Below are positions 165 to 15,487 of a stretch of DNA of 64,000 bases, one piece after another; position 1 is the first letter of the stretch; each line of letters begins with the position of its first letter. Below the pieces are notes generated by a model. That model saw only the letters and a list, made by a program, of their open reading frames with translations, was not told the DNA's origin and ran no database searches. Location of the stretch: NCBI RefSeq assembly GCF_003018235.1, contig NZ_CP027437.1; one strand, 5' to 3'. The DNA is from Escherichia coli. Lineage in GTDB: Bacteria; Pseudomonadota; Gammaproteobacteria; Enterobacterales; Enterobacteriaceae. The position numbers and the translations under genes were made by a program.

Positions 165-1718
165 ATGCAAATGATTACCTCGCGACAAAACAGATTATTA
201 CGATTCCTTTTACCACGAAGGGAATATACGACTATTGTTACGATTGCCGGCTATTTAAATGTTTCGGAAAAAACCATTCAACGTGATTTACGTTTACTTG
301 AGCAATGGCTGGAACAATGGCGAATAACCGTTGAGAAGCGTGCTGGCGCAGGTGTGATGTTAGACTCGAAGAATATTACTGATTTGCTGCATCTTGATCA
401 TTTGTTGGGAGCAGAATGTGAAGAGATTGATGGTGTAATGAATAATGCCAGGCGCGTTAAAATAGCGTCGCAGTTATTAAGTGAAACACCGAATGAAACG
501 TCGATCAGTAAATTGTCAGAGCGCTATTTTATCAGTGGAGCCTCTATTGTTAATGACCTGAGAGTGATTGAGTCCTGGCTTGCGCCGTTGGGGTTATCAT
601 TGATCCGCAGCCCAAGTGGTACGCATATTGAAGGTAGTGAAGGGCAAGTCCGACAGGCAATGGCATTACTGATTAACGGCATTATTAACCATAATGAGCC
701 GCAAGGTGTCGTGTATTCACGTCTGGATCCCGGAAGTTATAAAGCATTAGTCCATTATTTTGGAGAAGAAGAGGTGTTATTTGTCCAGTCATTGTTACTG
801 GATATGGAAAATGAATTAAGTTGGTCTTTGGGAGAGCCTTATTACGTTAACATTTTTACTCACATCCTTATTATGATGTATCGCAACACGCACGGGAATG
901 CGTTATCCAGAGAAGAAGATCAAACCAGGCAATATGATGAAAATATCTTTAATGTTGCCAGTCAGATGATTCATAAGATAGAACAACGAATTGCACATAC
1001 ATTGCCCGATGATGAAGTCTGGTTTATTTATCAATATATCATTTCATCAGGTGTGGCGATTGATGGACAAAAAGATGTTAGCATTATTTCACATATGCAG
1101 GCCAGCAATGAAGCGCGTCTGATTACCTGGCGTTTAATTACGGTATTCAGTGACATCGTGGACTGCGATTTTAGTGAAGACAGCGCATTATATGATGGCT
1201 TATTGGTGCATATTAAGCCGCTGATTAACCGACTAAATTATCGCATTCATATCCGTAATCCATTGCTGGAAGATATTAAAGCAGAATTAGCGGATGTCTG
1301 GCGGTTGACGCAATATGTGGTGAATCAGGTATTTAAAACCTGGGGTGAGAATGCAGTGAGCGAGGATGAAGTGGGTTACCTGACCGTTCATTTTCAGGCT
1401 GCGATGGAGCGGCAAATTGCCCGTAAACGCGTATTACTGGTCTGTTCAACCGGAATCGGAACTTCGCATCTACTGAAAAGCCGTATTCTGCGAGCGTTTC
1501 CTGAATGGACGATTGTTGATGTTATTTCAGCAGCGAATTTATCACAGGTTTTGCCTGACAATATCGAACTGATTATTTCGACCATTAATTTGCCTACAGT
1601 CACTATGCCGGTCGCTTATGTTACCGCTTTTTTTAATGATGCCGATATTAAGCGGGTCACTGAAATGGTGATTACGGAAAAATTACATCATGCGACATCT
1701 CGGGTCGTTGAAATTTAA
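165..1718 (+). CDS. PTS-operon transcriptional activator (Mga-type HTH, PRD domains, EIIB-like CSTGIGTS motif); regulator of frz-like operon
   Basis: 517-aa ORF; N-terminal HTH-like region (EKTIQRDLRLLEQWL), C-terminal LLVCSTGIGTSHLL typical of PTS-regulatory-domain activators; first gene of PTS operon. Confidence 0.8.
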   Translation: MQMITSRQNRLLRFLLPRREYTTIVTIAGYLNVSEKTIQRDLRLLEQWLEQWRITVEKRAGAGVMLDSKNITDLLHLDHLLGAECEEIDGVMNNARRVKIASQLLSETPNETSISKLSERYFISGASIVNDLRVIESWLAPLGLSLIRSPSGTHIEGSEGQVRQAMALLINGIINHNEPQGVVYSRLDPGSYKALVHYFGEEEVLFVQSLLLDMENELSWSLGEPYYVNIFTHILIMMYRNTHGNALSREEDQTRQYDENIFNVASQMIHKIEQRIAHTLPDDEVWFIYQYIISSGVAIDGQKDVSIISHMQASNEARLITWRLITVFSDIVDCDFSEDSALYDGLLVHIKPLINRLNYRIHIRNPLLEDIKAELADVWRLTQYVVNQVFKTWGENAVSEDEVGYLTVHFQAAMERQIARKRVLLVCSTGIGTSHLLKSRILRAFPEWTIVDVISAANLSQVLPDNIELIISTINLPTVTMPVAYVTAFFNDADIKRVTEMVITEKLHHATSRVVEI

Positions 1719-1744
1719 TGTCAGAATTTTATGAGGTATGACGA

Positions 1745-2215
1745 ATGGACATAACAAAAATCCTGAATACGAATCGCGTTATTTTAGATATGCAAGCGAC
1801 GAATAAAGCGGAGGCGATTGAAGAATTAACTAATCTTCTCAAAAAAGATGGTGCGATCGATTGTCGGGAAACCTTTATTAAAGATGTCTGGCAGCGCGAA
1901 GCGGAAGGCTCGACTGGTTTTGAAAATCATATTGCGATCCCGCATGGTAAATCTTCTGCGGTAATTAATACCACGCTGGCGATCGGGCGAACCCGGCAGG
2001 ATATTCCCTGGGAAACGCTGGATGGCAGTAGCGTGCGCTGTATTATTTTATTTGCGGTACGTCTTGAAGATCAAAATACCACCCATATCCGTTTACTTTC
2101 CCAGGTCGCGGGTGCGCTGGCGGATGATGACATCATAGAACAATTGCTGGTTGAGACGAGTCCGCAAAAAATCATTGATCTCTTTAGTCAGTATGCACAA
2201 TCCGATGTCTGCTAA
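1745..2215 (+). CDS. PTS EIIA component, fructose/mannitol (type-2) family
   Basis: 156 aa; conserved HIAIPHGK phosphorylation-site His motif; operon context. Confidence 0.8.
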   Translation: MDITKILNTNRVILDMQATNKAEAIEELTNLLKKDGAIDCRETFIKDVWQREAEGSTGFENHIAIPHGKSSAVINTTLAIGRTRQDIPWETLDGSSVRCIILFAVRLEDQNTTHIRLLSQVAGALADDDIIEQLLVETSPQKIIDLFSQYAQSDVC

Positions 2216-2232
2216 ATAACAGGGAGTATGTC

Positions 2233-2547
2233 ATGAATATTGTCTGTGTTGCCGCCTGCACGGCGGGTATTGCTCACACCTATATTGCTCGTGAAAAGTT
2301 AATTAAAGGGGCAAAAGCACTGGGCCACACCATTAAAGTTGAAACCCAGGGAACCATTGGTACAGAAAACGAATTACAGGCGGCAGAGATCTCTGCTGCT
2401 GACGTCGTGATTCTTGCTGTGGATGTGAAAATAAAAGGAGAAGAACGTTTTACCAATAAACGCATTGTGCGAGTAAAGACAGAGATCGTCATTAAATCGC
2501 CCGTTCAATTTCTTGAAAAGGTCGAAAAATCACTGGGAAATAAATGA
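2233..2547 (+). CDS. PTS EIIB component, fructose-type
   Basis: 104 aa; N-terminal CVAACTAGIAHTYIA Cys motif typical of fructose-family EIIB. Confidence 0.8.
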   Translation: MNIVCVAACTAGIAHTYIAREKLIKGAKALGHTIKVETQGTIGTENELQAAEISAADVVILAVDVKIKGEERFTNKRIVRVKTEIVIKSPVQFLEKVEKSLGNK

Positions 2548-2571
2548 TCCTTATACTGGAGGGATCTTAAT

Positions 2572-3663
2572 ATGAAAGAAAATAAAATTCCGGTTTCACA
2601 GGAAATTAAAAAACATTTATTAACCGGCATCTCGTGGATGATACCCCTTATTGTGGCCGCCGGGATATGTATTGCGTTGGGGCAAGTTCTTGGCGGTACA
2701 GATGTTGGTGAAAAAACAGGAACAATCCCGTGGATGCTTAATCAGATTGGCGGCTGGGGAATGGGGCTGATTGTGCCGCTGATTAGCGCGGCAATTGCCT
2801 ATTCTATTGCTGATCGTCCCGGTTTTGCCCCGGGCCTGATTGTCGGCTTTCTCTGTGGGCAAATCCATACCGGATTTATTGGCGGTATGTTGGGTGGTTT
2901 CCTGGTGGGCTACACCATTTTGCTACTTAAACGCTATATCCGCCTGCCGCAGTCGATGCAAGGACTCATGCCAATCATGGTGTTACCGGTATTGAGCACC
3001 ATTATCGGTGGGCTGTTAATGATGACGCTGATTGGTAAACCCATCGCCTGGTTACAAGAAGCACTGACTCATTTGCTCGAGTCGATGCAGGGCGGATCGC
3101 GCTTCCTGATGGGGGCCATACTTGGCGCGATGGCAACCTTCGATTTCGGTGGTCCGGTCAACAAAACCATGTCGCTGTTTTCCGATGGCTTGCTGGTCAG
3201 TGGCGTCTACGGACCAGAAGCCGTGAAATTTGTCGGCTCAATCATCCCTCCGTTTGGCATCACACTTTCGTTCTTACTGACACGCCATAAATACACCCGT
3301 GCGGAGCGCGAGGCGCTGAAAGCCGCGTTTCCGATGGGGATCTGCATGATCACTGAAGGAGTCATTCCGATCGCCGCGCGTGACCTGCTGCGAGTAGTGG
3401 GATCTTGTGTGGTGGCATCGGCGGTCGCGGGCGGCTTAATCATGGTGTGGGGCGTGGAGAGTCCGGTTCCGCATGGCGGCATGTTTGTTGTGCCTCTGTT
3501 CACCCATCCTCTGCTGTTTTGCCTGGCGCTGGGTATAGGCACGGTGATTTGTGGCGTGATGCTTTCACTCTGGAAGAAACCGGTAACGGAACGCGACGAA
3601 GAGTTTGACGAACTGAGCGATCAAAAGCTGAAAGATGAAGAGATCACTTTCACCCTCGAATAA
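2572..3663 (+). CDS. PTS EIIC permease, fructose-like family
   Basis: 363 aa, highly hydrophobic multi-TM protein; GGAGG SD upstream; follows EIIA/EIIB. Confidence 0.8.
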   Translation: MKENKIPVSQEIKKHLLTGISWMIPLIVAAGICIALGQVLGGTDVGEKTGTIPWMLNQIGGWGMGLIVPLISAAIAYSIADRPGFAPGLIVGFLCGQIHTGFIGGMLGGFLVGYTILLLKRYIRLPQSMQGLMPIMVLPVLSTIIGGLLMMTLIGKPIAWLQEALTHLLESMQGGSRFLMGAILGAMATFDFGGPVNKTMSLFSDGLLVSGVYGPEAVKFVGSIIPPFGITLSFLLTRHKYTRAEREALKAAFPMGICMITEGVIPIAARDLLRVVGSCVVASAVAGGLIMVWGVESPVPHGGMFVVPLFTHPLLFCLALGIGTVICGVMLSLWKKPVTERDEEFDELSDQKLKDEEITFTLE

Positions 3664-3674
3664 CCGGAGGCCCT

Positions 3675-4526
3675 ATGTTTGCCGATATGAAAAGTATGGT
3701 GATGAAAGCCTGGCATGAACATTACGCCTTGCTGGCGATCAACTGTATGAATCTGGAAAGTGCTCACGCAGCTATCCGCGTGGCGGAGAAGAATCGCGCT
3801 CCGATCATTCTCAATCTCTATCAGGGGCATCTGGCGCATTTTCCTGCACCCGTCGCGGCGGCAGTGGTTAAAACGCTCGCGGAATCTGCCTCAGTACCGG
3901 TCGCTCTGGCGCTTGATCATGGCAAAAATCCGGACTGTATTCGTCAGGCGTTTCGTGCTGGTTTCAGCGGATTAATGATTGATGCTTCTGCTTTTCCCCT
4001 GGAGGAAAACGTGCGCCAGACCAGGGCGGTGGTGGAACTCGCCGCCAGCGCGCAGCTCTGCGTGGAAGGCGAACTGGGCCATCTGGCAGATGCGCCGCGT
4101 TACGACCAGGCCGCCAATGCAGACCTGATGACGCAACCCACTGATGTGGAACCGTTTATCGCGCAGACAGGCATTGATCTACTGGCCGTCTCGGTAGGCA
4201 CGGCGCACGGCATGTACGCGCCTGGTGTTGTACCTGCTATTGATTTTCAGCGTCTGGCGGAGATTTTCCACTGCTCGAGCGTGCCTCTGGCATTACATGG
4301 CGGTAGCGGTACGCCGTTCGATCAGCTCCAGCTCTGTACGACGCTGGGGGTAGCAAAAATCAACGTGGGGGCGGCCATTTTTGAACGGGGGAAATCCGCG
4401 CTCCTGCATACCCTCTGTCACGATATATCCATTGAACTGGTGGACGCGCTGAAAGCTATGGAACTGGCCTTCGAAGAAGCGATTACACCGTATTTACAGG
4501 CGAGCGGCTCTATAGGCAAAGCCTGA
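3675..4526 (+). CDS. Class II ketose-1,6-bisphosphate aldolase (GatY/KbaY/FbaA family), copy 1
   Basis: 283 aa; LDHG, GTAHG and LHGGSG metal-binding motifs. Confidence 0.8.
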   Translation: MFADMKSMVMKAWHEHYALLAINCMNLESAHAAIRVAEKNRAPIILNLYQGHLAHFPAPVAAAVVKTLAESASVPVALALDHGKNPDCIRQAFRAGFSGLMIDASAFPLEENVRQTRAVVELAASAQLCVEGELGHLADAPRYDQAANADLMTQPTDVEPFIAQTGIDLLAVSVGTAHGMYAPGVVPAIDFQRLAEIFHCSSVPLALHGGSGTPFDQLQLCTTLGVAKINVGAAIFERGKSALLHTLCHDISIELVDALKAMELAFEEAITPYLQASGSIGKA

Positions 4527-4606
4527 TTCATTTTCTGTCATGGCCTTTATGCCAGTGCAATAACGCACCGGCAGGGCGGACTACACGCTGAAACTGGAGA
4601 TTTAAC

Positions 4607-5467
4607 ATGTTAGTTTCGATGAAAGAATTACTGCAACCTACCCGCCAGCACGGCTTTGCCATTGGCGCATTTAATGTGGCGGATAACTGTTTCCTTCGCG
4701 CAGTCGTGGATGAAGCAGAAGCGACAAATACTCCGGCGATTATTGCCATCCATCCCAGCGAACATGATTTTGTGGGCGATGCCTTTTTCGCTCACGTTCG
4801 CGAAATTACCCAGCGTAGTCCGGTCCCGTTTGTACTGCACCTCGATCATGGTGCCTCTGTAGAGCATGTTTTGCGTGCGATTCGCTGCGGATTTACCTCA
4901 GTAATGATCGACGGTTCGCTGCTGCCGTATGAAGAAAACGTGGCGCTGACCGCAGAAGTGGTTCGCCTCGCTCACGCGGTTGGAGTGTCGGTTGAGGGTG
5001 AACTGGGAACCATCGGACAAACAGGAACGTCGGTAGAAGGTGGTGTTTCACAAGTGACCTACACAGATCCGGCGCAGGCCGCCGATTTTATTGCTCGTAC
5101 AGGTGCCGACACTCTGGCTGTGGCGATTGGTACAGCGCATGGCATCTATCCAAAAGGGATGCAGCCGAAGCTGCAAATGGACATTTTGCGCGACATTGCC
5201 GGACGTATTGATATTCCGCTGGTGCTACACGGTGGTTCGGCAAACCCGGACGCGGAGATTGCTGAATCAGTTACGCTCGGCGTCGGCAAAATCAATATCT
5301 CCAGCGATATGAAATACGCCTATTTCCAGAAAGTGCGTGAAATTCTCGCTAAAGAGAGCTGGTGGGACCCGAACGTCATCTATCCGGATGCGATTAACGC
5401 GGCGCGGGAAGTCATTCGCCACAAAATGAAACTGTTCGGTTCGCTCGGTAAAGCATCACTGTACTAA
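4607..5467 (+). CDS. Class II ketose-1,6-bisphosphate aldolase, copy 2
   Basis: 286 aa; HLDHG, IGTAHG, LVLHGGS motifs; paralog of preceding gene. Confidence 0.8.
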   Translation: MLVSMKELLQPTRQHGFAIGAFNVADNCFLRAVVDEAEATNTPAIIAIHPSEHDFVGDAFFAHVREITQRSPVPFVLHLDHGASVEHVLRAIRCGFTSVMIDGSLLPYEENVALTAEVVRLAHAVGVSVEGELGTIGQTGTSVEGGVSQVTYTDPAQAADFIARTGADTLAVAIGTAHGIYPKGMQPKLQMDILRDIAGRIDIPLVLHGGSANPDAEIAESVTLGVGKINISSDMKYAYFQKVREILAKESWWDPNVIYPDAINAAREVIRHKMKLFGSLGKASLY

Positions 5468-5474
5468 GCCAGAA

Positions 5475-5495
5475 GGGCGGGGTGACCCGCCTTTT
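5475..5495 (+). terminator. GC-rich hairpin (GGCGGG-GTGA-CCCGCC) followed by TTTT between aldolase-2 and ROK kinase; possible intra-operon attenuator/partial terminator
   Basis: Inverted repeat read directly from sequence, T-run downstream. Confidence 0.35.
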
Positions 5496-5514
5496 ACGCA
5501 ACAAGGAACGAGAT

Positions 5515-6447
5515 ATGCACTATCTGGGGTTGGATATTGGTGGGACCAAAATCGCCGCCGTCGTCATGGATGCGCATGGCTGGGAGATTCGCCGTTACCG
5601 CTGCCCGACGCAAAAGTCGACATATCAACAATTTGTCTCATGCGTTGTGGCGTTTATCGAGCAGATTAGGCGGGACGTTCAACGACCGATGCTGACAGGG
5701 ATCGCCTTACCCGGCAGTATCTCGCCACTCACTGGCCTGATTAAAAACGCGAATATTCAGGTGATTAACGGTCATGCGTTACAGGCTGATTTGCAGCAAT
5801 TGCTTGGGCAACCGGTGGTGATAGCCAATGATGGTAACTGTTTCGCGCTATCAGAAGCTTGCGACGGTGCCGGGCAAGATTATGACGTGGTATTTGGTAT
5901 TACGCTTGGTACGGGCTGCGGCGGTGGCATTGCCATCAAGCAACGACCGTTTATAGGGGCCTGGGGAAATGCTGCCGAATGCGGTCATATCACGTTGCCA
6001 AGCTATACGGAGCAGGAAGATGGTCCATCAGTCAGTTGCTATTGCGGCAAACACAACTGCGTGGAGTCGTTTGTTTCCGGCAGCGGTTTTAGTGAACGCT
6101 ATCAACAGATGACTGCTAACTTGCTCACTCCTGCGGCGATTGTCACCCTGGCACAACGTGGTGATGCTTGTGCCATGCAGCAGGTGGCACGTTTTCGCCA
6201 ACAGCTTGCCCGCACGCTGGCAACCATCGTTAACGTTGTTGACCCTGGCGTGATTGTGATTGGCGGCGGGCTTTCGAATGTGGAACTGCTTATCACCGAT
6301 CTGAACGCAGAAGTCGCTCCACTGGTTTTCACCGACCAATTCACCACCCCCATTGTAAAAGCGCAGCACGGCGACAGTAGCGGAATGCGTGGCGCTGCCT
6401 GGCTTGCTATGCGCAACGGAGAAGCCAATGAAACGTTCACAAATTAA
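5515..6447 (+). CDS. ROK-family sugar kinase
   Basis: Start trimmed to MHYLGLDIGGTKIA (AAGGAA SD upstream); ROK glycine-rich ATP motif and Cys-rich zinc motif (CYCGKHNC). Confidence 0.8.
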   Translation: MHYLGLDIGGTKIAAVVMDAHGWEIRRYRCPTQKSTYQQFVSCVVAFIEQIRRDVQRPMLTGIALPGSISPLTGLIKNANIQVINGHALQADLQQLLGQPVVIANDGNCFALSEACDGAGQDYDVVFGITLGTGCGGGIAIKQRPFIGAWGNAAECGHITLPSYTEQEDGPSVSCYCGKHNCVESFVSGSGFSERYQQMTANLLTPAAIVTLAQRGDACAMQQVARFRQQLARTLATIVNVVDPGVIVIGGGLSNVELLITDLNAEVAPLVFTDQFTTPIVKAQHGDSSGMRGAAWLAMRNGEANETFTN

Positions 6448-7108
6448 TTATGTTATTGATAAAGCACATGCCATTGCGCAGACCTTCCGCGTTTGTTTGC
6501 CAGAGTTCGCCTATTTTACGGTGGATGACTGGCTGCAGCGGGAACGGGATAACTGGCAAGAAGTGGTCGACTTACAGCTCGGTTGGGATATCACCGATTT
6601 TGGTCGTGGTGATTTCAACCAAACGGGACTAACACTGCTAACGATGCGCAACGGCGCGCTGGGGGCGGCGGCATATCCAAAACCGTATGCTGAGAAAATG
6701 TTGCAGATCCAACAAGATCAGCAGACTCCCTGGCATTTTCACACCCACAAAATGGAAGATATCCTCAATCGGGGCGGTGGAGACTTATGCATGCAGTTGG
6801 CCTGGGCCAACGAAGCCAATCTCTGTGATGATCAACGAGTCATTACCGTGAGTGTTGATGGTCAGCGGCGTACCATGAAACCTGGTGAAACGCTGGTGCT
6901 AAAGCCGGGGCAGGGCATTTGCCTGCCGCCGCGTCTGTATCATCGCTTCTGGGCGGAAAAAGCGTTTGTTCTCGGCTGGGAAATTTCGATGGTAAATGAT
7001 GACCAACACGATAACTATTTTCTTGAGCCGGGAGGACGTTTTCCGGCGATAGAAGAAGATGAACCGGTGAAATGGTTATTGTGCAGTGAGTATGGAATTT
7101 TGCGCTAA
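6428..7108 (+). CDS. Cupin-superfamily protein (D-lyxose/sugar isomerase-like)
   Basis: Start chosen at MKRSQINYV (overlaps ROK stop by 20 nt); HFHTHK cupin metal motif; last gene of frz-like operon. Confidence 0.7.
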   Translation: MKRSQINYVIDKAHAIAQTFRVCLPEFAYFTVDDWLQRERDNWQEVVDLQLGWDITDFGRGDFNQTGLTLLTMRNGALGAAAYPKPYAEKMLQIQQDQQTPWHFHTHKMEDILNRGGGDLCMQLAWANEANLCDDQRVITVSVDGQRRTMKPGETLVLKPGQGICLPPRLYHRFWAEKAFVLGWEISMVNDDQHDNYFLEPGGRFPAIEEDEPVKWLLCSEYGILR

Positions 7109-7151: not shown

Positions 7152-8861
7152 TTACTGCACCGGCTCCGTCGACGTAACTTCACCACTGGAAACTACGCCC
7201 GCATTCATGGTTTGAGTCACTTGCTGCTTTGCGGCATTCACGGCATGCAATTGCCCGCTAACCGTAGGTTTCAGCGGGACATTGGCCTGAATATCGCCAC
7301 TGGCAGTAAGCTGAATATTGCCGTCGCCAGTCAACGGTAATTCAGGCCATCCCCACTGTTGCAAAATATTCACCGGCACACCGCGTCCATTCAGGCTGAT
7401 ATGGGTCTGACGTTGTGGCGTTTGTGAAACACTGGCGGTGGCTTCCAGAATGCCTTTTTCAGTAAATGCACTCAGTTCGCTGATATTCACCGTGCTGCTG
7501 TTGGCGGTCAGCGCCAGCGATGGGCGACGAACATCAACACGATTGAATGTCGCGGCGGCGGCATTCAGATTCGCCGAACCACTCCAGACGCCCCATTTAT
7601 GATCGGTAACCAGCGTCAGGTTGGTACCGTAACCATCGAGCGCGGTGAGCTGCCACGGGAAGTCAGGGTCGATATCAATGATCAGATTGCGGCTGGCGCT
7701 AAATCTCTTCAGTTGCAGGCTGTTTAACCAACCGGGTGTCGTTTCCATCCACAACTGTTGCCAGTTTTTTGGCAAGGTATATTCCAGTCCGGCAATTGCC
7801 GCATCATCAAGGAGCAACGTTTTCCCGTTGCGCAGCCAGTTCCCGGACGTTCTGACCATGCCCCCTTCCCAGCGGCTGGTGAACTGGCGCAGCGCTACGC
7901 CCTGCGGGGAAAATTCCGCGTTTATAATCGGGTCAAATAAATGCAGCGAACCATAAATGAACTCGCTGGCGTTCATCGACAGTTTGCCTTCCTGTGTCTG
8001 CCAGTCATCTTTACTGAAGGTCATGTTGCGCAAGCTGAGATCGAGGTCGGTCACCGCCCAGTCCGGACCTTGCAGGCGAGCGTCGATGACTTCCAGGCGA
8101 CCGATCTGCAACGACGGGACAGAGCGTAATGGCGCAAAGAAGTCAGTTAGCGATTTTTCGCTTTGTAGACGGATATCCGCCAGCCGCAGATTTTCCACTT
8201 GCCAGCTGCCGTCGGCGTTACGCTGCGCGTTTCCGGTTAATGTCCCGCGGGCGATGTCGGCACCCAGGTTAGTCAGCGTAACGCGATCGTTATCAATACT
8301 GCCTTCAATCAGTACATTGGTGGCAGGAACATCATTGAGAGAAAGCGATCCGGCACTAAACTGAATCTGCGCCTTCGTACCCAGCACTTTACCGGCTTCT
8401 GGTGACCACGGAACCACGCCACCATTTACCCGCTGCGCGCTCAGTTTCCATTCGCTATTCGGGCTATTAAACGCCATATCACGCAGTTGCAGACGATCGG
8501 CTTTGAACGGTAGCGGCGCGGTCTGGTCGGTGAGATTCAGCGTCCCGTTTTCCAGCAGGATGGTATCGACATGGCGTGGTTCGGTCAGTTGCCGACTGCT
8601 TAGCGCAATGTCGACACTTTTTGCCACCAGGGTCGCGGGCTGGCCATCACGGCCGAACGTGACGTTCTCCAGCACGATATGAGATGGCGCGGAAAAACGG
8701 TGATCCATCGCCCCGAAGGCCAGATGATAGTCGCTATTCTCGGAAACCCATGCGCTGATATGTTCTGCTCCCCAGCGGGTTTGCAGAAGAAAATAGAGGC
8801 CAGCGATCACCACTAACAGAGCGATGAAAATGTAGAGAAGCAGCTTCCCAATAAATTTCAT
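7152..8861 (-). CDS. yicH: AsmA-family outer-membrane biogenesis protein YicH
   Basis: 569 aa after trimming to MKFIGKLLLYI; N-terminal TM segment; synteny next to xanP. Confidence 0.85.
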   Translation of the reverse strand: MKFIGKLLLYIFIALLVVIAGLYFLLQTRWGAEHISAWVSENSDYHLAFGAMDHRFSAPSHIVLENVTFGRDGQPATLVAKSVDIALSSRQLTEPRHVDTILLENGTLNLTDQTAPLPFKADRLQLRDMAFNSPNSEWKLSAQRVNGGVVPWSPEAGKVLGTKAQIQFSAGSLSLNDVPATNVLIEGSIDNDRVTLTNLGADIARGTLTGNAQRNADGSWQVENLRLADIRLQSEKSLTDFFAPLRSVPSLQIGRLEVIDARLQGPDWAVTDLDLSLRNMTFSKDDWQTQEGKLSMNASEFIYGSLHLFDPIINAEFSPQGVALRQFTSRWEGGMVRTSGNWLRNGKTLLLDDAAIAGLEYTLPKNWQQLWMETTPGWLNSLQLKRFSASRNLIIDIDPDFPWQLTALDGYGTNLTLVTDHKWGVWSGSANLNAAAATFNRVDVRRPSLALTANSSTVNISELSAFTEKGILEATASVSQTPQRQTHISLNGRGVPVNILQQWGWPELPLTGDGNIQLTASGDIQANVPLKPTVSGQLHAVNAAKQQVTQTMNAGVVSSGEVTSTEPVQ

Positions 8862-8949
8862 GGTCTTCCATCCCGTGAAATGCACATAAGGGAGTTATGC
8901 ACGATTTACGCGCAATCCTCAAGGCGGGAATGGTGAAAGAGGTGAGACT

Positions 8950-8981: not shown

Positions 8982-10373
8982 TTACTGTTTTTCTGGTGGG
9001 AAAATCAGATTCAGCACGATGGCAGTAATACCGCCTGCGGCGATCCCGGAGGAGAGCAGGTTTTTCAGCCACTCAGGGGCAAACTGCAAAATCAGCGGCT
9101 GCTGAGACACGCCCAAACCGACCGCCAGCGACAGCGCGATAATCAGAATCGCCCGACGGTTCAGCGGCTCACGAGAAACAATGCGCACACCGGAGGCGGC
9201 GATGGTGCCAAACATTACAAGCGTTGCGCCGCCCAGAACCGGTTCAGGAATGTGTTGTACAAAACCGCTCACTGCCGGGAACAGACCCAGCACGATCAAC
9301 ATCAGCGCGACGACAAAACCGACATAGCGGCTGGCAACACCGGTTAACTGGATCACTCCGTTGTTCTGCCCGAAGCAGGAGTTCGGGAAGGTGTTAAATA
9401 CCGCCGAAACAAACGAGTTCAGGCCGTTTGCCAGCACGCCGCCTTTCAGGCGTTTCATGTACAGCGGACCGGACACTGGCTGTTCGGAAACGTCAGAGGT
9501 CGCCGTGATATCGCCAATGGTTTCCAGCGAAGTGATCATAAAGACCAGCATCAGCGGCAGCAGCAGACTCCATTCAATGCCAAGGCCGTAATAGAGCGGC
9601 GTTGGTACCATAATCAGTTCTTGCGTCATCGGTTCGTTGCTTTCTGGCAACATGCCCATAAACCACGCCAGCGCATATCCGGCCGCCATCGCAATCACCA
9701 GTGAGGCCACGCGTAAGTAAGGGTTACGTTGACGGTTAAGCAGGATAATTAAGGCTAAAACCACGCCTGCCAGCAGCAGATTTTTCGGTGCGCCGAAGGT
9801 GTTATCGCTCATGGCTGCGTAACCGCCGCCAATGGAGGTCAGCCCCACCTGAATTAGCGACAGGCCGATAATCATCACCACAACGCCAGAAACCAGCGGC
9901 GTAATAATGCGGCGCGCCAGATGCAGAACGCGGGAGATCACCATCTCGGTGCAACTTGCCAGCATCAACGTGCCAAACAAAGCCGCCATCATGGTAGGAA
10001 CATCAGCACCACCGGTTTTCAGCGCGGTACCGCCCATAATCAGCGGGGCAACAAAGTTGAAGCTGGTGCCCTGAATAGACAACAGCCCGGAGCCAACCGG
10101 ACCCCAGGCCTTAATTTGAATAATCGATGCCACACCGGAGGCAAACAGCGACATACTAATAATGTGTTGCGTGTCTTGTGCCGGTAAACCCAGCGCCTGG
10201 CAGATTAATAGCGCTGGCGTGATCACCGCAACGAACATCGCCAGCAAATGCTGACAGGCGGCAAACAGAGTTTGAGGAAGCGGCGGACGATCTTCAAGAC
10301 GGTAAATCAGTTCGCTGTTTTGAGTCTGCGCAACCGGTTGCGCATTTTCTGACTCGAGGGTGGAAACAGACAT
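8982..10373 (-). CDS. xanP: Xanthine permease (NCS2 family)
   Basis: 463 aa from [16 protein letters not shown]; matches remembered XanP/YicE sequence. Confidence 0.9.
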
Positions 10374-10651
10374 CGAAAACAATCCCGTGGTAGCAAAGCG
10401 GGCATTTTAGCTGACCGAAAGAGAAAAGCAAACGTTTGCCACATCCTCATCTAAATATTTAAATGAGATAAATGCACTTTTTTATATAACTTTTGGTATT
10501 TTTCTGCTTAAAATCCATGCCATTTGTTCATTAACAGCTGAGAATTTGACCCAGGAAAGCATAACTCGATACCCGTCATAGTTCATAAGTTGCCACTGCG
10601 CGATGAAGTATGACGAGTATGAAAGAGTGATGCGGATACAAAGGAGTAACT

Positions 10652-11857
10652 ATGTTTCATCTCGATACTTTAGCAACGCTTGTTGCCGCAACGCTGACGT
10701 TGCTGCTCGGGCGTAAGTTGGTCCATTCCGTCTCCTTTTTGAAGAAATACACCATACCGGAACCTGTTGCGGGTGGTTTGTTGGTGGCGTTAGCGCTACT
10801 GGTACTGAAAAAAAGCATGGGCTGGGAAGTCAACTTTGATATGTCCCTGCGCGATCCGTTAATGCTGGCATTCTTCGCCACCATTGGCCTGAACGCCAAC
10901 ATTGCCAGTTTGCGTGCCGGTGGGCGTGTGGTTGGCATCTTCTTGATTGTGGTTGTTGGTCTGTTGGTGATGCAAAATGCCATTGGCATTGGTATGGCTA
11001 GCCTGTTAGGGCTTGATCCGCTGATGGGGCTGTTGGCCGGTTCTATTACGCTTTCCGGCGGTCACGGTACGGGCGCTGCGTGGAGTAAATTGTTCATTGA
11101 ACGCTATGGCTTCACCAATGCGACGGAAGTGGCGATGGCCTGTGCGACGTTTGGTCTGGTGCTGGGCGGCTTGATTGGCGGTCCGGTAGCGCGCTATCTG
11201 GTGAAACACTCCACCACGCCGAACGGTATTCCGGATGACCAGGAAGTCCCGACGGCGTTCGAAAAGCCGGATGTGGGCCGCATGATCACCTCGCTGGTGC
11301 TGATTGAAACTATCGCGCTGATTGCTATCTGCCTGACGGTGGGGAAAATTGTTGCGCAACTTTTGGCTGGCACTGCTTTTGAACTGCCGACCTTCGTCTG
11401 TGTACTGTTTGTTGGCGTGATTCTGAGCAACGGTCTGTCAATGATGGGCTTTTACCGCGTCTTTGAGCGTGCGGTATCCGTGCTGGGTAACGTAAGCCTG
11501 TCGTTGTTCTTGGCGATGGCGCTGATGGGGCTGAAATTATGGGAGCTGGCTTCGCTGGCGCTGCCGATGCTGGCGATTCTGGTGGTACAGACCATCTTCA
11601 TGGCGCTGTATGCCATCTTCGTTACCTGGCGCATGATGGGCAAAAACTACGATGCGGCAGTGCTGGCTGCGGGTCACTGTGGTTTTGGCCTCGGTGCAAC
11701 GCCAACGGCAATCGCCAACATGCAGGCGATCACTGAACGTTTTGGCCCGTCGCACATGGCCTTCCTGGTCGTGCCGATGGTCGGTGCGTTCTTTATTGAT
11801 ATCGTTAACGCGCTGGTGATTAAGCTGTATTTGATGTTGCCGATTTTTGCCGGTTAA
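10652..11857 (+). CDS. gltS: Sodium/glutamate symporter
   Basis: 401 aa, polytopic membrane protein; matches GltS. Confidence 0.9.
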   Translation: MFHLDTLATLVAATLTLLLGRKLVHSVSFLKKYTIPEPVAGGLLVALALLVLKKSMGWEVNFDMSLRDPLMLAFFATIGLNANIASLRAGGRVVGIFLIVVVGLLVMQNAIGIGMASLLGLDPLMGLLAGSITLSGGHGTGAAWSKLFIERYGFTNATEVAMACATFGLVLGGLIGGPVARYLVKHSTTPNGIPDDQEVPTAFEKPDVGRMITSLVLIETIALIAICLTVGKIVAQLLAGTAFELPTFVCVLFVGVILSNGLSMMGFYRVFERAVSVLGNVSLSLFLAMALMGLKLWELASLALPMLAILVVQTIFMALYAIFVTWRMMGKNYDAAVLAAGHCGFGLGATPTAIANMQAITERFGPSHMAFLVVPMVGAFFIDIVNALVIKLYLMLPIFAG

Positions 11858-11859
11858 AA

Positions 11860-12726
11860 ATGAAAAAGCGTCGGAAGGAACCGGAAACGCTACGTGAACA
11901 CTGTCGCCATATTTTTGGTGACGAGCCGCCAGTGCTCTGTGTATGGGAAACGGAATTTGATTACGCAGATGCCGAACTCAAGGCGCTGGCGGCTAAAGAG
12001 TGGCAACAGATAGGCGAATGGGATTTGAGTGCTTACTATGTACTCAATCTCGTTTATAACGAACCGATGCAAATAGAGCTGTTTCGCTATCTGTTTCCGC
12101 TATGCCTGGCGCAATGGCATGAAACCGTTTTAGCTGGCGGTTATGGTGATCACTTCGAAGAATCCTTAATGAAGGCATTGCGTCGGCCCTATCTCTGGCA
12201 GGAGATGATGAATGCTTCCCAACGCCAGCAGGTACGGCAATTTTTACTGGAAACCGCGTTGCAGCGTATGGATAACGAGCGTGGTTTCAATAATGTTCTT
12301 TGCTGGCTGGCGGTGTTCAATACTCTGGGCGGGGCCGCGCCGTTAATTCATTCTCTCTGGTCACGCTGGTGGGCACTGGATACGCCGGGAAAAGCGGTGT
12401 GTGCTATTCAGTATGCCGCGCATCTAATTTATCCCATAGAAGCCAATCCGTTATGGTCGCAAGAATGGTTAGGCTGGGGGCATCCATTAGGTCATAAAGA
12501 TGGCTGGTCCTCTGAGAATCGCGCTTTTCTTCGCCAAATGTTAACACCTGAAATGATTGTGGCTGGCGTACAGGCAGCGGCTGAAATTCTGCGTGGTGAA
12601 CCGGAAGGCGCAATGGCGGCGCGAATTGCGCAGGATGCGTATGAGGCAATGGATATCATCACTATCCAGATTGAAGATTTACTGCGTGACTTGTCTTGCG
12701 ATGAGTCAGGTCATGCGTTGGAGTAA
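11860..12726 (+). CDS. Hypothetical protein, unknown function (Trp-rich, soluble)
   Basis: 288-aa ORF starting 3 nt after gltS stop; 3' end overlaps recG 3' end on opposite strand; no family recognised by eye; absent from K-12 at this position as far as I recall. Confidence 0.55.
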   Translation: MKKRRKEPETLREHCRHIFGDEPPVLCVWETEFDYADAELKALAAKEWQQIGEWDLSAYYVLNLVYNEPMQIELFRYLFPLCLAQWHETVLAGGYGDHFEESLMKALRRPYLWQEMMNASQRQQVRQFLLETALQRMDNERGFNNVLCWLAVFNTLGGAAPLIHSLWSRWWALDTPGKAVCAIQYAAHLIYPIEANPLWSQEWLGWGHPLGHKDGWSSENRAFLRQMLTPEMIVAGVQAAAEILRGEPEGAMAARIAQDAYEAMDIITIQIEDLLRDLSCDESGHALE

Positions 12727-14792
12727 CGTTCCGTTTCCGGCATCCAGCGTTCTATCAGGGCTTTTGCCTGTTGTGGGTAACGTTCGTGAATATGTCGCGC
12801 CAGGCGCTGAACTTCCGGGATCATCGCCTGATCGCGCAGTAAATCCGCCACTTTAAACTCAGCATTACCCGTCTGACGCGTACCTAACAGTTCACCCGGT
12901 CCGCGAATCTCTAAGTCTTTCTGTGCAATCACAAAACCGTCGTTGCTGTCGCGCAGTACCTGCAGGCGAATTTGCGCCGTTTTAGAGAGCGGTGTTTTGT
13001 AGAGCAACACGCAGTGAGAAGCCACCGCACCACGACCTACACGCCCGCGAAGCTGGTGCAACTGCGCCAGACCCAGACGCTCCGGGTTTTCGATAATCAT
13101 CAGGCTGGCGTTAGGCACATCAACGCCGACTTCAATAACGGTAGTGGCAACCAGCAGGTGTAACTCGCCTTGTTTAAATGATGCCATGACGGCCTGCTTC
13201 TCGGCTGGTTTCATCCGTCCGTGTACCAGACCAACATTCAACTCTGGTAGCGCCAGTTTCAACTCTTCCCAGGTAGCTTCCGCCGCCTGCGCTTCCAGTA
13301 ACTCTGACTCTTCAATGAGTGTGCACACCCAGTACGCCTGACGCCCTTCAGTCATACAGGCGTGGCGCACGCGGTCAATGATGTCGGTACGGCGAGTATC
13401 AGGAATAGCGACCGTAGTCACTGGCGTGCGGCCTGGCGGCAGTTCATCAATGACCGAGGTGTCGAGATCAGCATACGCAGTCATCGCCAGCGTGCGGGGG
13501 ATCGGCGTGGCGGTCATGATCAACTGATGAGGATGGAAGCCTTGCTGCTGGCCTTTCTCCCATAACGCCAGACGCTGATGCACGCCAAAACGATGCTGTT
13601 CGTCGATAATCACCAGCGCCAGGCCGTTAAACTGCACCTGTTCCTGGAAGATGGCGTGTGTTCCGACAATCATCTGCACCTGACCGCTGGCGATGGCTTC
13701 CTGCTGTGCCAGCCGCGCTTTACCTTTCTGCTTACCGGCGAGCCAGCCCACTTCGATACCGAGCGGTGCAAACCAGTTACGGAAGTTATTGGCGTGCTGT
13801 TCGGCGAGTAATTCGGTTGGTGCCATCAATGCCACCTGTTTGCCGTGGGCAATCGCACGCAGCGCGGCGAGGGCAGCGACCAGCGTTTTACCGGAACCTA
13901 CATCGCCCTGTACCAGGCGCATCATCGGCGCATCCAGCGCCATATCGCGCTCGATCTCCGCCACCACGCGTGCCTGTGCGCCCGTTGGCTTGAACGGTAA
14001 GGCTGCGAGGAGTTTATTTTTCAGCGCGTCATTGGCGCTAAGCGGCTGGGCATGGAAACGTTGTGCACCAGCGCGTAACGCCAACATGCTGAGGTTGTGC
14101 GCAAGCAGTTCTTCCAGAATCAGACGGCGTTGTGCTGGATGCTGCCCGGTTTCGAGATCGCTAAGCTGTAGCGTCGGCGGCGGGCGGTGCAAAGTGCGCA
14201 ACGCTTCCGGTAGCGTCATCATTCCTTGTGACAGTTCCGGCGGCAGGAGTTCTTCAATGGCGCAGGTGTCGAGCAGATCCAGCGCCTGGTCGGTTAATTT
14301 ACGCAGCGTGGCCTGCTTTACGCCTTCGGTTGTTGGATAAACCGGCGTAAGCGTTTCCTGCAACTCTGGCGTACTGAGATCGCCCTGCACGCGGTATTCC
14401 GGGTGGATCATCTCCGCGCCATATTTACCGCGCTTTACTTCTCCATAGGCCAGCACGCGGCGGCCCGTCGCCAGGCTATTTTTCATTGCCGCGTTGAAGT
14501 TGAAAAAGCGCATGGTGAGAATGCCGGAACCGTCGCTGATCTGGCAGGTCATCATCCGCCGACCGCCGAAGGAGATATTGCAGTTCAGCACTTCGCCTTC
14601 CACCGTGGCATAAACGCCCGGTAGTAGTTCTCCGATGGGGTAGAGATGGGTGCGATCTTCGTAGCGCAGGGGAAGGTGTAAGAGTAGATCCTGCACGGTA
14701 TGCAGGTTGATTTTCGCCAGCTTGTTACTGAGCGCTGCGCCAACGCCCGTTAGGGAACTGAGCGGGACAGCATCTAACAGGCGACCTTTCAT
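12711..14792 (-). CDS. recG: ATP-dependent DNA helicase RecG
   Basis: 693 aa from MKGRLLDAVPLSSLTGVG; helicase motifs GDVGSGKT, DEQHRFG. Confidence 0.95.
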   Translation of the reverse strand: MKGRLLDAVPLSSLTGVGAALSNKLAKINLHTVQDLLLHLPLRYEDRTHLYPIGELLPGVYATVEGEVLNCNISFGGRRMMTCQISDGSGILTMRFFNFNAAMKNSLATGRRVLAYGEVKRGKYGAEMIHPEYRVQGDLSTPELQETLTPVYPTTEGVKQATLRKLTDQALDLLDTCAIEELLPPELSQGMMTLPEALRTLHRPPPTLQLSDLETGQHPAQRRLILEELLAHNLSMLALRAGAQRFHAQPLSANDALKNKLLAALPFKPTGAQARVVAEIERDMALDAPMMRLVQGDVGSGKTLVAALAALRAIAHGKQVALMAPTELLAEQHANNFRNWFAPLGIEVGWLAGKQKGKARLAQQEAIASGQVQMIVGTHAIFQEQVQFNGLALVIIDEQHRFGVHQRLALWEKGQQQGFHPHQLIMTATPIPRTLAMTAYADLDTSVIDELPPGRTPVTTVAIPDTRRTDIIDRVRHACMTEGRQAYWVCTLIEESELLEAQAAEATWEELKLALPELNVGLVHGRMKPAEKQAVMASFKQGELHLLVATTVIEVGVDVPNASLMIIENPERLGLAQLHQLRGRVGRGAVASHCVLLYKTPLSKTAQIRLQVLRDSNDGFVIAQKDLEIRGPGELLGTRQTGNAEFKVADLLRDQAMIPEVQRLARHIHERYPQQAKALIERWMPETERYSNA

Positions 14793-14797
14793 GGCAC

Positions 14798-15487
14798 TTA
14801 TCCTGCAGCCTGCATGGTAGCCCACCAGTCGGCATCAGCTTCGATCTCGCCTTGCTGATTGACGTGGGGGTAAGGCAGGCCTTTGCGTTTTGCGACTTTC
14901 GCCAGCACCGGATAGCCGCCTTCAAACAACAGGCGTTGTTGCTCTGCTTCCGGCAACATGCTGTTTTCACGCAGGTACATGCCCGCATTTTGCCGCTGGC
15001 GCTGGGCTTCGTAAAGAATGAGGGCTGAGGCAACGGAAACATTCAGCGATTGCACCATGCCAATCATCGGAATGATGATGTCCCGATCCGCCAGGGCCAA
15101 CGCTTCCTGCGTGATGCCTGTTTTCTCCTGTCCCATCAAAATACAGGTCGGGCGAGTGTAATCAATTTCGCGGAAATCGACAGCGTTATCAGAAAGATGG
15201 GTTGCAAGAATCTGCATGCCCTGGCCTTTCAGATGAGCGACGGCATCGCCAATGGTGCGGTGCGTTTTCACCTGTACCCAGCTGTTACTACCCGCAGCTG
15301 CCGAAGCCATGGTGCGCATCCGGCTGCCAGGCCAGACGGCATGAACTTCATGTACACCAACGGCATCTGCGGTACGAATAATCGCAGAAACGTTATGAGG
15401 TTTATGGACCTGCTCCATGCAGACGGTCAGATCAGGCTGCCGCCTGGTGAGCATTTCGCAGATGCGTGCATAACGTGTTGGGTTCAT
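14798..15487 (-). CDS. trmH: tRNA (guanosine18-2'-O)-methyltransferase
   Basis: 229 aa SpoU-family methyltransferase; spoT operon synteny. Confidence 0.9.
   Translation of the reverse strand: MNPTRYARICEMLTRRQPDLTVCMEQVHKPHNVSAIIRTADAVGVHEVHAVWPGSRMRTMASAAAGSNSWVQVKTHRTIGDAVAHLKGQGMQILATHLSDNAVDFREIDYTRPTCILMGQEKTGITQEALALADRDIIIPMIGMVQSLNVSVASALILYEAQRQRQNAGMYLRENSMLPEAEQQRLLFEGGYPVLAKVAKRKGLPYPHVNQQGEIEADADWWATMQAAG

What the first reader, a model, noticed from the sequence alone, without database searches (positions are those of the whole stretch)
11860..12726. Uncharacterised 288-aa gene inserted between gltS and recG
As far as I recall, K-12 has only a short spacer between the convergent gltS and recG genes. 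Here an 867-bp ORF fills that position: it starts 3 nt after the gltS stop (suggesting co-transcription or translational coupling) and its last 16 nt overlap the 3' end of recG on the opposite strand. The protein is Trp-rich with no recognisable catalytic motif, signal peptide or TM segment. GC content looks host-like, so it is not an obviously recent import. It is the only gene in the window to which I cannot assign a family.
Basis: partly seen in the sequence, partly recalled or inferred. Interest (0 to 1): 0.55.

Follow-up and report, generated by a model that had tools for sequence, protein, structure and literature searches.

The report
Uncharacterised accessory gene beside recG
The 288-codon reading frame between gltS and recG is a real, selected gene (Ybl159/ECs_4528) carried by about a third of E. 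coli strains; its function is unknown, and the only clue is that distant relatives sit inside RNA-repair operons.

Summary
An intact 867-bp ORF (11860-12726, +) starts 2 nt after the gltS stop and overlaps the recG 3' end by 16 nt. K-12 has a 168-bp non-coding spacer there.

The ORF is not new as an object. RefSeq annotates it as "hypothetical protein" in 1,917 of 5,426 complete E. coli genomes, including O157:H7 Sakai (ECs_4528) and E. coli B REL606. UniProt calls it Ybl159.

It is not a recent insertion. Orthologues lie at the recG 3' end in Salmonella, Superficieibacter, Intestinirhabdus and other enterics. dN/dS is 0.11-0.22. There are no phage or true plasmid copies. K-12 and about 65% of E. 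coli have lost it.

The protein is cytoplasmic, acidic (pI 5.0), Trp-rich (4.5%) and folds as an all-alpha solenoid (pLDDT 89). It has no Pfam, NCBIfam, PADLOC, PHROGs or PDB relative.

The family has at least 442 clusters at 50% identity and is mainly planctomycete-like. In that clade, seven independent loci place it inside hen1-X-rlaP-rlaP-pnkp RNA-repair cassettes.

My best guess, at low confidence, is a non-catalytic binding module used in the response to RNA damage or ribotoxins, acting alone in E. coli. Interest is moderate.

The parts
11860..12726 (+). Protein-coding gene X (Ybl159 / ECs_4528 orthologue), 288 aa plus stop
   Evidence: ORF. Present in 1,917 of 5,426 complete E. coli genomes. 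dN/dS 0.11-0.22. AF2 model pLDDT 89, pTM 0.88, all-alpha.
11855..11862 (+). gltS stop (TAA), 2-nt gap, X start (ATG): a tight junction suggesting co-transcription and translational coupling
   Evidence: Sequence. The same arrangement occurs in Salmonella L003 (gltS ends 5998, X starts 6001), and L008 has a 1-nt overlap. No sigma-70-like site in 10300-13200. Coupling itself is inferred, not shown.
11941..11961 (+). Codons for residues 28-34, VWETEFD: family-wide motif VWE-x-[EQ]-FD
   Evidence: V28, W29, E30, F33 and D34 are invariant in A1. F33 and D34 are at least 90% conserved across 64 distant members. The motif is also conserved in the planctomycete clade.
12079..12117 (+). Codons for residues 74-86, LFRYLFPLCLAQW: the most conserved block of the family
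   Evidence: P80 invariant, W86 at least 90% conserved in 64 sequences. This block supplied the peptide patterns that recovered related loci.
12711..12726 (.). 16-nt overlap of the convergent 3' ends of X (+) and recG (-). No terminator-like hairpin lies between them.
   Evidence: ORF-less strains have a 33-bp GC-rich hairpin plus T-run here. K-12 has that hairpin plus a ~135-bp insertion.
10652..11857 (+). gltS (sodium/glutamate symporter), upstream gene and probable transcription unit of X
   Evidence: 100% amino-acid identity to the NRZ14408 and Sakai GltS.
12711..14792 (-). recG, the convergent neighbour. Its 3' end is the conserved landmark for X in enterobacteria.
   Evidence: recG, trmH and spoT homologues lie next to X in 14 loci.

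Best explanation
X is a genuine, intact, vertically inherited accessory gene of Enterobacteriaceae. It is old at the recG 3' end and has been lost in K-12 and about two thirds of E. coli. In this window it is probably expressed from the gltS transcript by translational coupling. It encodes a soluble, acidic, Trp-rich, all-alpha solenoid protein with no catalytic signature. That part is shown or nearly so. The mechanism is inferred: X is most likely a non-catalytic binding module, acting as an adaptor, protector or inhibitor, that recognises a conserved partner or ligand in the cell's response to RNA damage by ribotoxins. The reason is that its deeper relatives are operon components of hen1-X-rlaP-rlaP-pnkp RNA-repair cassettes. 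E. coli has none of those enzymes next to X, so X would have to carry out its binding function on its own. The stated confidence refers to this mechanistic part.
Against: The repair context is confined to a clade only 29-37% identical to the E. coli protein. The proteobacterial clade is separate on the tree and never has these neighbours. Even within the planctomycete clade only about half of the informative loci have the context. Two of three loci fetched as a test did not. Other neighbours are heterogeneous: ECF sigma, TonB-like, DinB, R2K ATP-grasp, TIR, McrBC. No expression, interaction or phenotype data exist in the searched literature. An acidic protein is a poor candidate for direct RNA binding.
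Confidence: 0.3

Rival explanations
1. X is a stand-alone immunity- or antitoxin-like inhibitor, or another conflict-system protein. It would neutralise an incoming toxin or effector that is not necessarily an RNase. Its presence in RNA-repair cassettes would be one instance of a general 'damage-countering toolkit' association.
For: X is acidic, helical, small and fast-evolving: dN is 5-10 times that of its neighbours, with dN/dS still below 0.25. It shows presence/absence polymorphism within species. Relatives have conflict-type neighbours: McrBC plus DUF6869 and DUF6714 in Cupriavidus, and a TIR_2 domain, an R2K ATP-grasp, an ORF6N domain and a muramidase among the pooled neighbours, where the batch output does not say which protein carries which family. 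An ADP-ribosylglycohydrolase lies in L018.
Against: No toxin gene is adjacent in any enterobacterial locus. There is no PADLOC or Pfam immunity-family match. Sequence motifs are conserved from Planctomycetota to Enterobacteriaceae, which argues for a conserved target rather than a variable cognate toxin.
Confidence: 0.2
2. X is an enzyme of an unrecognised type, for example one acting on a nucleotide, a modified nucleoside or another small molecule. Its active site or pocket would be lined by the conserved Trp, Tyr, Asp, Gln and Asn residues.
Against: The Cys/His block is not conserved in the enterobacterial proteins. No catalytic motif or known enzyme fold was detected. The few conserved polar residues are not typical catalytic sets.
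Confidence: 0.15
3. X works with GltS, as a regulator, assembly factor or metabolic partner of glutamate uptake, as its tight coupling to the gltS stop codon suggests.
For: The gap or overlap with gltS is 2 nt or less in E. coli, Salmonella and a 48%-identical orthologue. No separate promoter-like site was found.
Against: K-12 and about 65% of E. coli keep gltS without X. Superficieibacter, Intestinirhabdus and 'Enterobacter sp. kpr-6' keep X next to recG without gltS upstream. Relatives outside the enterics are never next to a glutamate symporter.
Confidence: 0.08
4. X is a non-functional relic or a spurious ORF that merely fills the convergent gltS/recG gap.
For: It is dispensable in most strains. 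GC3 is lower than in its neighbours. Many database entries are truncated.
Against: There is purifying selection within E. coli and between genera. Full-length conservation extends down to 29% identity in other phyla, with a confident predicted fold. The truncated entries are mostly 'partial' proteins at contig ends.
Confidence: 0.03

Closest known systems
Ybl159 / ECs_4528 (O157:H7 Sakai, NP_312555.2) / WP_000747329.1 (E. coli B REL606) / WP_001579244.1: annotated 'hypothetical protein'
   Same: It is the same gene: 97-99% identical, in the same position between gltS and recG, with the same 16-nt overlap. The exact window protein is already in public collections.
   Different: Nothing differs. 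No function has ever been assigned, and no paper in the searched library mentions it.
Accessory components of bacterial Pnkp/Hen1 RNA-repair operons (RlaP nucleotidyltransferase; Rnl of the Pnkp1-Rnl-Hen1 complex)
   Same: Relatives at 29-37% identity occupy a fixed slot in hen1-X-rlaP-rlaP-pnkp cassettes with overlapping or near-abutting reading frames.
   Different: X has no nucleotidyltransferase, ligase, kinase or methyltransferase signature. The E. coli gene has no such neighbours. No biochemical link has been shown.
HEAT/ARM-type alpha-solenoid scaffolds (for example MMS19, Cep104 TOG domain, importins)
   Different: Sequence identity is 2-12%. There is no HEAT or Arm Pfam match and no profile match to any PDB sequence. 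This is a resemblance of general architecture, not evidence of homology.
Helical immunity proteins of polymorphic toxin / colicin / CDI systems
   Same: Small, acidic and helical; variable presence between strains; fast-evolving.

Membership tests
Ybl159/ECs_4528-like family (uncharacterised, no Pfam entry) | Full-length (~280-310 aa) alignment with the motifs VWE-x-[EQ]-FD and LQP[DE]LF-x-YLFP-x-CL-x-x-W | tested here: met
   Alignments A1, A2 and A3. A profile search finds 442 representative clusters at E<=1e-3 and 118 at E<=1e-30.
Ybl159/ECs_4528-like family, enterobacterial orthologue group | Location convergent with the 3' end of recG | tested here: met
   Window, plus 14 loci with recG, trmH and spoT beside X.
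Pnkp/Hen1(/RlaP) RNA-repair system component | Encoded in the same operon as pnkp, hen1 or rlaP | tested here: not met
   tblastn of Pnkp, Hen1 and RlaP against the 64-kb window finds nothing. The feature is met only for planctomycete-clade relatives.
Pnkp/Hen1(/RlaP) RNA-repair system component | Physical or functional interaction with the repair enzymes or with damaged RNA | not testable with these tools
   Needs co-purification and repair assays.
HEAT / Armadillo repeat proteins | Match to HEAT/Arm repeat profiles | tested here: not met
   No Pfam match even at E<=10. None of 64 members matches a repeat family.
HEAT / Armadillo repeat proteins | Alpha-solenoid fold of stacked helical hairpins | tested here: inconclusive
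Polymorphic-toxin / colicin immunity proteins | Gene immediately next to its cognate toxin gene, or a match to an immunity family profile | tested here: not met
   The neighbours are gltS and recG. No Pfam or PADLOC match.
Known anti-phage defence systems (PADLOC) | Match to a defence-system protein model | tested here: not met
   0 families at E<=1.
Mobile-element cargo (prophage, plasmid, island) | Copies on phages or plasmids, flanking repeats, integrase or tRNA target | tested here: not met
   No phage match. The three 'plasmid' matches carry recG or are megabase-sized records. All 1,921 E. coli places are chromosomal, and nearly every carrier genome has a single place (median 1, highest 2). 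Only short chance-level repeats were found.

The most novel reading that the evidence does not exclude
X founds a previously unrecognised, widely distributed protein family that is a working part of bacterial RNA-damage responses. In Planctomycetota it would be a fifth subunit or regulator of Hen1-Pnkp-RlaP repair cassettes. In a third of E. coli strains, including BL21/REL606 and O157:H7, it would be a stand-alone factor that changes tolerance to ribotoxins or tRNA damage. That would be a physiological difference between E. coli B and K-12 that nobody has looked at.
Probability: 0.2. Interest if true: 0.6.

Novelty: already known. Interest (0 to 1): 0.35.

Why it matters
The gene is present in two of the most used and most studied E. 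coli backgrounds, the B strains BL21/REL606 and O157:H7, and is absent from K-12. It is therefore easy to test genetically. It belongs to a sizeable family (at least 442 clusters at 50% identity) that no domain database covers. If the link to Hen1/Pnkp/RlaP cassettes reflects function, it would add a component to bacterial RNA repair and give a handle on why some enterobacteria keep this gene. If not, it remains one of many conserved hypothetical accessory genes. The junction also gives a clean three-allele marker in E. coli: the ORF, a 33-bp hairpin spacer, or the K-12 168-bp spacer.

Tried and rejected
1. Pfam on the protein and on 64 family members, NCBIfam, PADLOC, PHROGs, and PDB sequence searches with a single sequence and a profile all gave nothing.

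3. I looked for an ORF remnant in the 33-bp spacer of ORF-less strains. An apparent resemblance between ATGAAGCGGCGG and the ORF start is no better than shuffled controls, since 93% of shuffles score as high. The direction of the indel therefore rests on outgroup synteny, not on a scar.

4. Rfam over 10300-13300 gave nothing near the ORF.

5. Flanking repeats and mobile-element signatures gave only chance-level matches, and there are no phage or real plasmid copies.

7. Single look-ups of distant members (P0036, P0041, P0047, P0056) returned short contigs with uninformative neighbours.

8. I rejected a fused-chain AF2 test of X with Hen1 or RlaP. The tool returns no interface metrics and I had too few partner sequences.

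Full report
**1. The observation**

The window carries gltS at 10652-11857 (+). An ATG-initiated ORF of 288 codons follows at 11860-12726 (+), and recG lies on the opposite strand, 12711-14792 in its annotated 693-aa form. The gltS stop TAA (11855-11857) is followed by two bases and then the ATG. The ORF stop (12724-12726) lies 16 nt inside the recG 3' end.

K-12 MG1655 has a 168-bp non-coding spacer at this place. Homology between K-12 and the window breaks at the gltS stop and within a few bases of the recG stop (window ~12715).
- Trp is 4.5% of residues.
- No hydrophobic segment reaches a TM-like score.
- The N-terminus is basic and hydrophilic.
- Bulk GC is 0.502, against 0.501 for the whole window.

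One qualification applies. GC3 is 0.49, against 0.59-0.65 in the four neighbouring genes.

**2. It is a real gene, already annotated but never characterised**

The 867 bp are found in 1,917 of 5,426 complete E. coli genomes, always on the chromosome and almost always once per genome. In 1,911 of them a single match covers at least 80% of the 867 bp. RefSeq annotates the ORF as "hypothetical protein" in each genome inspected: WP_001579244.1 in NRZ14408, ECs_4528/NP_312555.2 in O157:H7 Sakai, and WP_000747329.1 in E. coli B REL606. UniProt entries call it Ybl159. The exact window protein has been seen on at least 1000 public contigs.

Pairwise dN/dS values are as follows:

| Comparison | X | gltS | recG |
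|---|---|---|---|
| dN/dS within E. coli | 0.13-0.22 | - | - |
| dN/dS, E. coli vs Salmonella | 0.11-0.12 | - | - |
| dN, E. coli vs Salmonella | 0.23 | 0.04 | 0.04 |

X is under purifying selection but evolves about five times faster than its neighbours. Against a 48%-identical orthologue the ratio is about ten.

**3. It was retained here and lost in K-12, not inserted**

Orthologues lie convergent with the recG 3' end in several lineages:
- Salmonella enterica (70% identity; gltS-X-recG with the same 2-nt junction)
- An unnamed enterobacterial lineage (48% identity; gltS and X overlap by one base)
- Superficieibacter
- Intestinirhabdus alba
- "Enterobacter sp. kpr-6"
- Several gut-type metagenome contigs

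Synonymous divergence of X between E. coli strains matches that of gltS (0.078 for window versus Sakai in both genes). Between E. coli and Salmonella it is saturated, as it is for the flanking genes. There is no phage copy. The three "plasmid" matches are chromosomal pieces filed as plasmids. Nothing resembling target duplications or terminal repeats flanks the ORF.

The E. coli population carries three alleles at this junction:
- The ORF: 1,913-1,917 genomes.
- A 33-bp spacer consisting of a GC-rich hairpin plus a T-run.
- The K-12 type, which is that hairpin spacer with a ~135-bp insertion bounded by a duplicated hairpin arm: 1,873 genomes.

The size of the 33-bp class, about 1,640 genomes, is inferred by subtraction and from an even split among sampled rows.

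The 33-bp spacer has no significant similarity to the ORF. The polarity of the change therefore rests on outgroup synteny. A strain whose flanks are 98.8% identical to the window lacks the ORF, while carriers such as O157:H7 are about 97% identical. Loss, or allele exchange by recombination, has therefore happened more than once.

**4. What the protein looks like**

AlphaFold2 with a 19-sequence alignment gives a confident model: mean pLDDT 89, pTM 0.88. It has 15 helices and no strands, with an ordered non-helical N-terminal segment (residues ~19-36) that carries the VWE-x-E-FD motif.

| Search | Result |
|---|---|
| Foldseek vs AFDB50 | Only family members and unnamed proteins |
| Pfam (protein, and 64 members) | No match |
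| NCBIfam, PADLOC, PHROGs | No match |
| PDB sequences (single sequence and profile) | No match |

The family is uniformly acidic (median pI 5.1, 93% below 6) and Trp-rich (median 3.5%). Across 64 diverse members P80 is the only invariant position, and F33, D34, Y60, Q71, W86, W170, G177, W216 and N220 are conserved in at least 90% of them. This pattern fits a binding surface or pocket better than a classical catalytic set. The planctomycete clade has an additional C-x-H-G-D-x-x-F-H block that the enterobacterial proteins lack.

**5. The family and its contexts**

A profile search of 1.84 billion representatives finds 442 clusters at E<=1e-3 and 118 at E<=1e-30. Nearly all are ~280-330 aa with no domain fusions. 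Most are closest to planctomycete sequences. Named genomes include Singulisphaera, Schlesneria, Kuenenia and Planctomycetaceae MAGs, plus sporadic proteobacteria: Cupriavidus, a Zoogloeaceae MAG, Leminorella and the enterics.

I fetched 15 genome loci and 51 metagenome loci. I then searched them with the neighbours seen in the first loci. Seven independent loci place X in one operon with RNA-repair genes:

| Locus | Gene order |
|---|---|
| L021 | hen1-X-(rlaP remnant)-pnkp |
| L030 | hen1-X-pnkp |
| L038 | hen1-X |
| L023 | rlaP-X-pnkp |
| L022 | rlaP-rlaP-X-(pnkp fragment) |
| L032 | (hen1 remnant)-X-rlaP-orf-rlaP-pnkp |
| L018 | X-rlaP-rlaP-ADP-ribosylglycohydrolase |

The gaps are 0-80 nt or the reading frames overlap. 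The neighbour identifications are secure:
- Pnkp: TIGR04075, 1419 and 1401 bits against a cut-off of 750.
- Hen1: TIGR04074, 729 bits against a cut-off of 340.
- RlaP: PF10127, E 1.7e-52.
- The hydrolase: a DraG/Tri1-type match, E 1.7e-19, below the curated cut-off.

On a rough NJ tree these loci are spread through the whole planctomycete clade. This suggests the cassette is the older context there. The proteobacterial clade, including E. coli, is separate.

As a test I fetched three further members of that clade. One (L084) has a 66-aa gene equal to the N-terminal domain of the long RlaP directly upstream of X. Two have unrelated neighbours on short contigs.

Elsewhere the neighbours are heterogeneous. 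Some are of the "conflict" type: McrBC, DUF6869 and DUF6714 in Cupriavidus, an R2K ATP-grasp overlapping X in Singulisphaera, and a TIR_2 domain somewhere among the pooled neighbours. Others are not: an ECF sigma factor, a TonB-like protein and a DinB-family protein.

**6. How it most likely works**

Shown:
- X is a selected, soluble, helical protein.
- It is old at the recG 3' end.
- It is dispensable within species.
- Its relatives are conserved operon components of Hen1/Pnkp/RlaP cassettes.

From the literature: Pnkp/Hen1-type complexes heal, seal and 2'-O-methylate ribotoxin-cut RNA (PMC4411300). RlaP adds one or two nucleotides to damaged RNA 3' ends and restores tRNA function (bioRxiv 10.64898/2025.12.29.696909).

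Inferred:
- Enterobacteria keep X under selection without any of those enzymes nearby, so X must have a self-contained activity that is also useful beside a repair machine.
- Its acidity, lack of catalytic signature and solenoid shape point to binding of a conserved partner or ligand. It could act as an adaptor, a protector or an inhibitor, rather than through catalysis or direct RNA binding.
- In this window it is probably made from the gltS mRNA by termination-reinitiation. The junction is 2 nt or less in three lineages, and no promoter-like site was found.
- There is no terminator between X and recG, so convergent transcripts probably overlap.

I put the RNA-damage-response reading at about 0.3. 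Rivals:

| Rival | Confidence | Main weakness |
|---|---|---|
| Generic immunity or conflict inhibitor | 0.2 | No adjacent toxin gene; motifs conserved across phyla |
| Unrecognised enzyme | 0.15 | No catalytic motif or known enzyme fold |
| GltS partner | 0.08 | gltS occurs without X, and X without gltS |
| Relic or spurious ORF | 0.03 | Purifying selection and a conserved, confident fold |

**7. Comparison, novelty and verdict**

As an object the gene is already known, as an annotated hypothetical protein in thousands of genomes. As a family it is uncharacterised and absent from domain databases. It fails the tested defining features of every characterised family I considered:
- HEAT/Arm repeat profiles
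- Immunity families
- Defence systems
- Mobile-element cargo
- For the E. coli gene itself, operon membership in Pnkp/Hen1 systems

The RNA-repair context of its planctomycete relatives is a concrete lead and, as far as the searchable literature shows, an unreported one. I could not consult the main comparative survey of RNA-repair operons.

For a specialist this is a modestly interesting conserved hypothetical gene. Its advantage is that it is directly testable in BL21/REL606 against K-12. Interest: 0.35.

Noticed in passing
window 165-7108 (+), next to yicH at 7152-8885 (-): The window carries a sugar-utilisation cluster: a PRD/BglG-type regulator, a fructose-type PTS EIIC, two class-II ketose-bisphosphate aldolases, a ROK fructokinase-like kinase and a D-lyxose/D-mannose isomerase. 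It abuts yicH where K-12, REL606, Sakai and NRZ14408 carry yicI-yicJ.
   Followed up: partly
L002 (K-12) 5293-5460 versus L010 659-691: The K-12 168-bp gltS/recG spacer equals the 33-bp hairpin spacer of other ORF-less strains plus a ~135-bp insertion. The insertion is bounded by a duplicated copy of the hairpin's left arm and contains a second hairpin and a REP-like stretch.
   Followed up: partly
protein cluster of window 11860-12723: The 90%-identity cluster that holds the E. coli protein (9,280 members) has a GltS sequence as its representative and mixes GltS and X sequences. This clustering artefact explains why the first homology search did not list the E. coli cluster.
   Followed up: partly
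L018 5944-9704 (Candidatus Kuenenia MAG): X, two RlaP nucleotidyltransferase paralogues and a DraG/Tri1-like ADP-ribosylglycohydrolase form one tightly packed same-strand run with no pnkp or hen1 in the 10.8 kb held. It may be a variant damage-reversal cassette.
   Followed up: partly
L016 5176-12395 (Cupriavidus campinensis), also L061-L063: X sits among small genes, including DUF6869 and DUF6714 proteins, and next to an McrBC restriction system. The same neighbours recur in three metagenome contigs.
   Followed up: partly
L032 3237-7441: A 1,328-aa ORF with no NCBIfam match occupies the place where hen1 would be. Only a 30-aa hen1 C-terminal remnant (7352-7441) remains before X.
   Followed up: no
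L020 5103-5966 (Singulisphaera sp. GP187): An R2K-clade ATP-grasp gene (PF18299/PF14243 in the batch scan; weak RimK-family match in NCBIfam) overlaps the start of X by 8 nt. It was seen only once.
   Followed up: no
L006 1869-3241 (Zoogloeaceae MAG): A retropepsin-like aspartyl protease gene overlaps the start of X by 4 nt, between ssb and secA.
   Followed up: no
window 11881-11895 and 12726-12740: A 15-nt inverted repeat, 87% complementary, brackets almost the whole ORF. One arm lies 21 nt into X and the other just past its stop inside recG. It is probably chance.
   Followed up: no
window 12711-14825 (-): The recG reading frame is open upstream to a GTG, giving 704 aa, whereas all annotations use the ATG that gives 693 aa (MKGRLLDA...).
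   Followed up: no
L081 20633-21499 (E. coli B REL606): The REL606 copy has locus tag ECB_RS25620, out of series with its neighbours RS18570 and RS18580. This suggests it was missing from the original annotation and added later.
   Followed up: no
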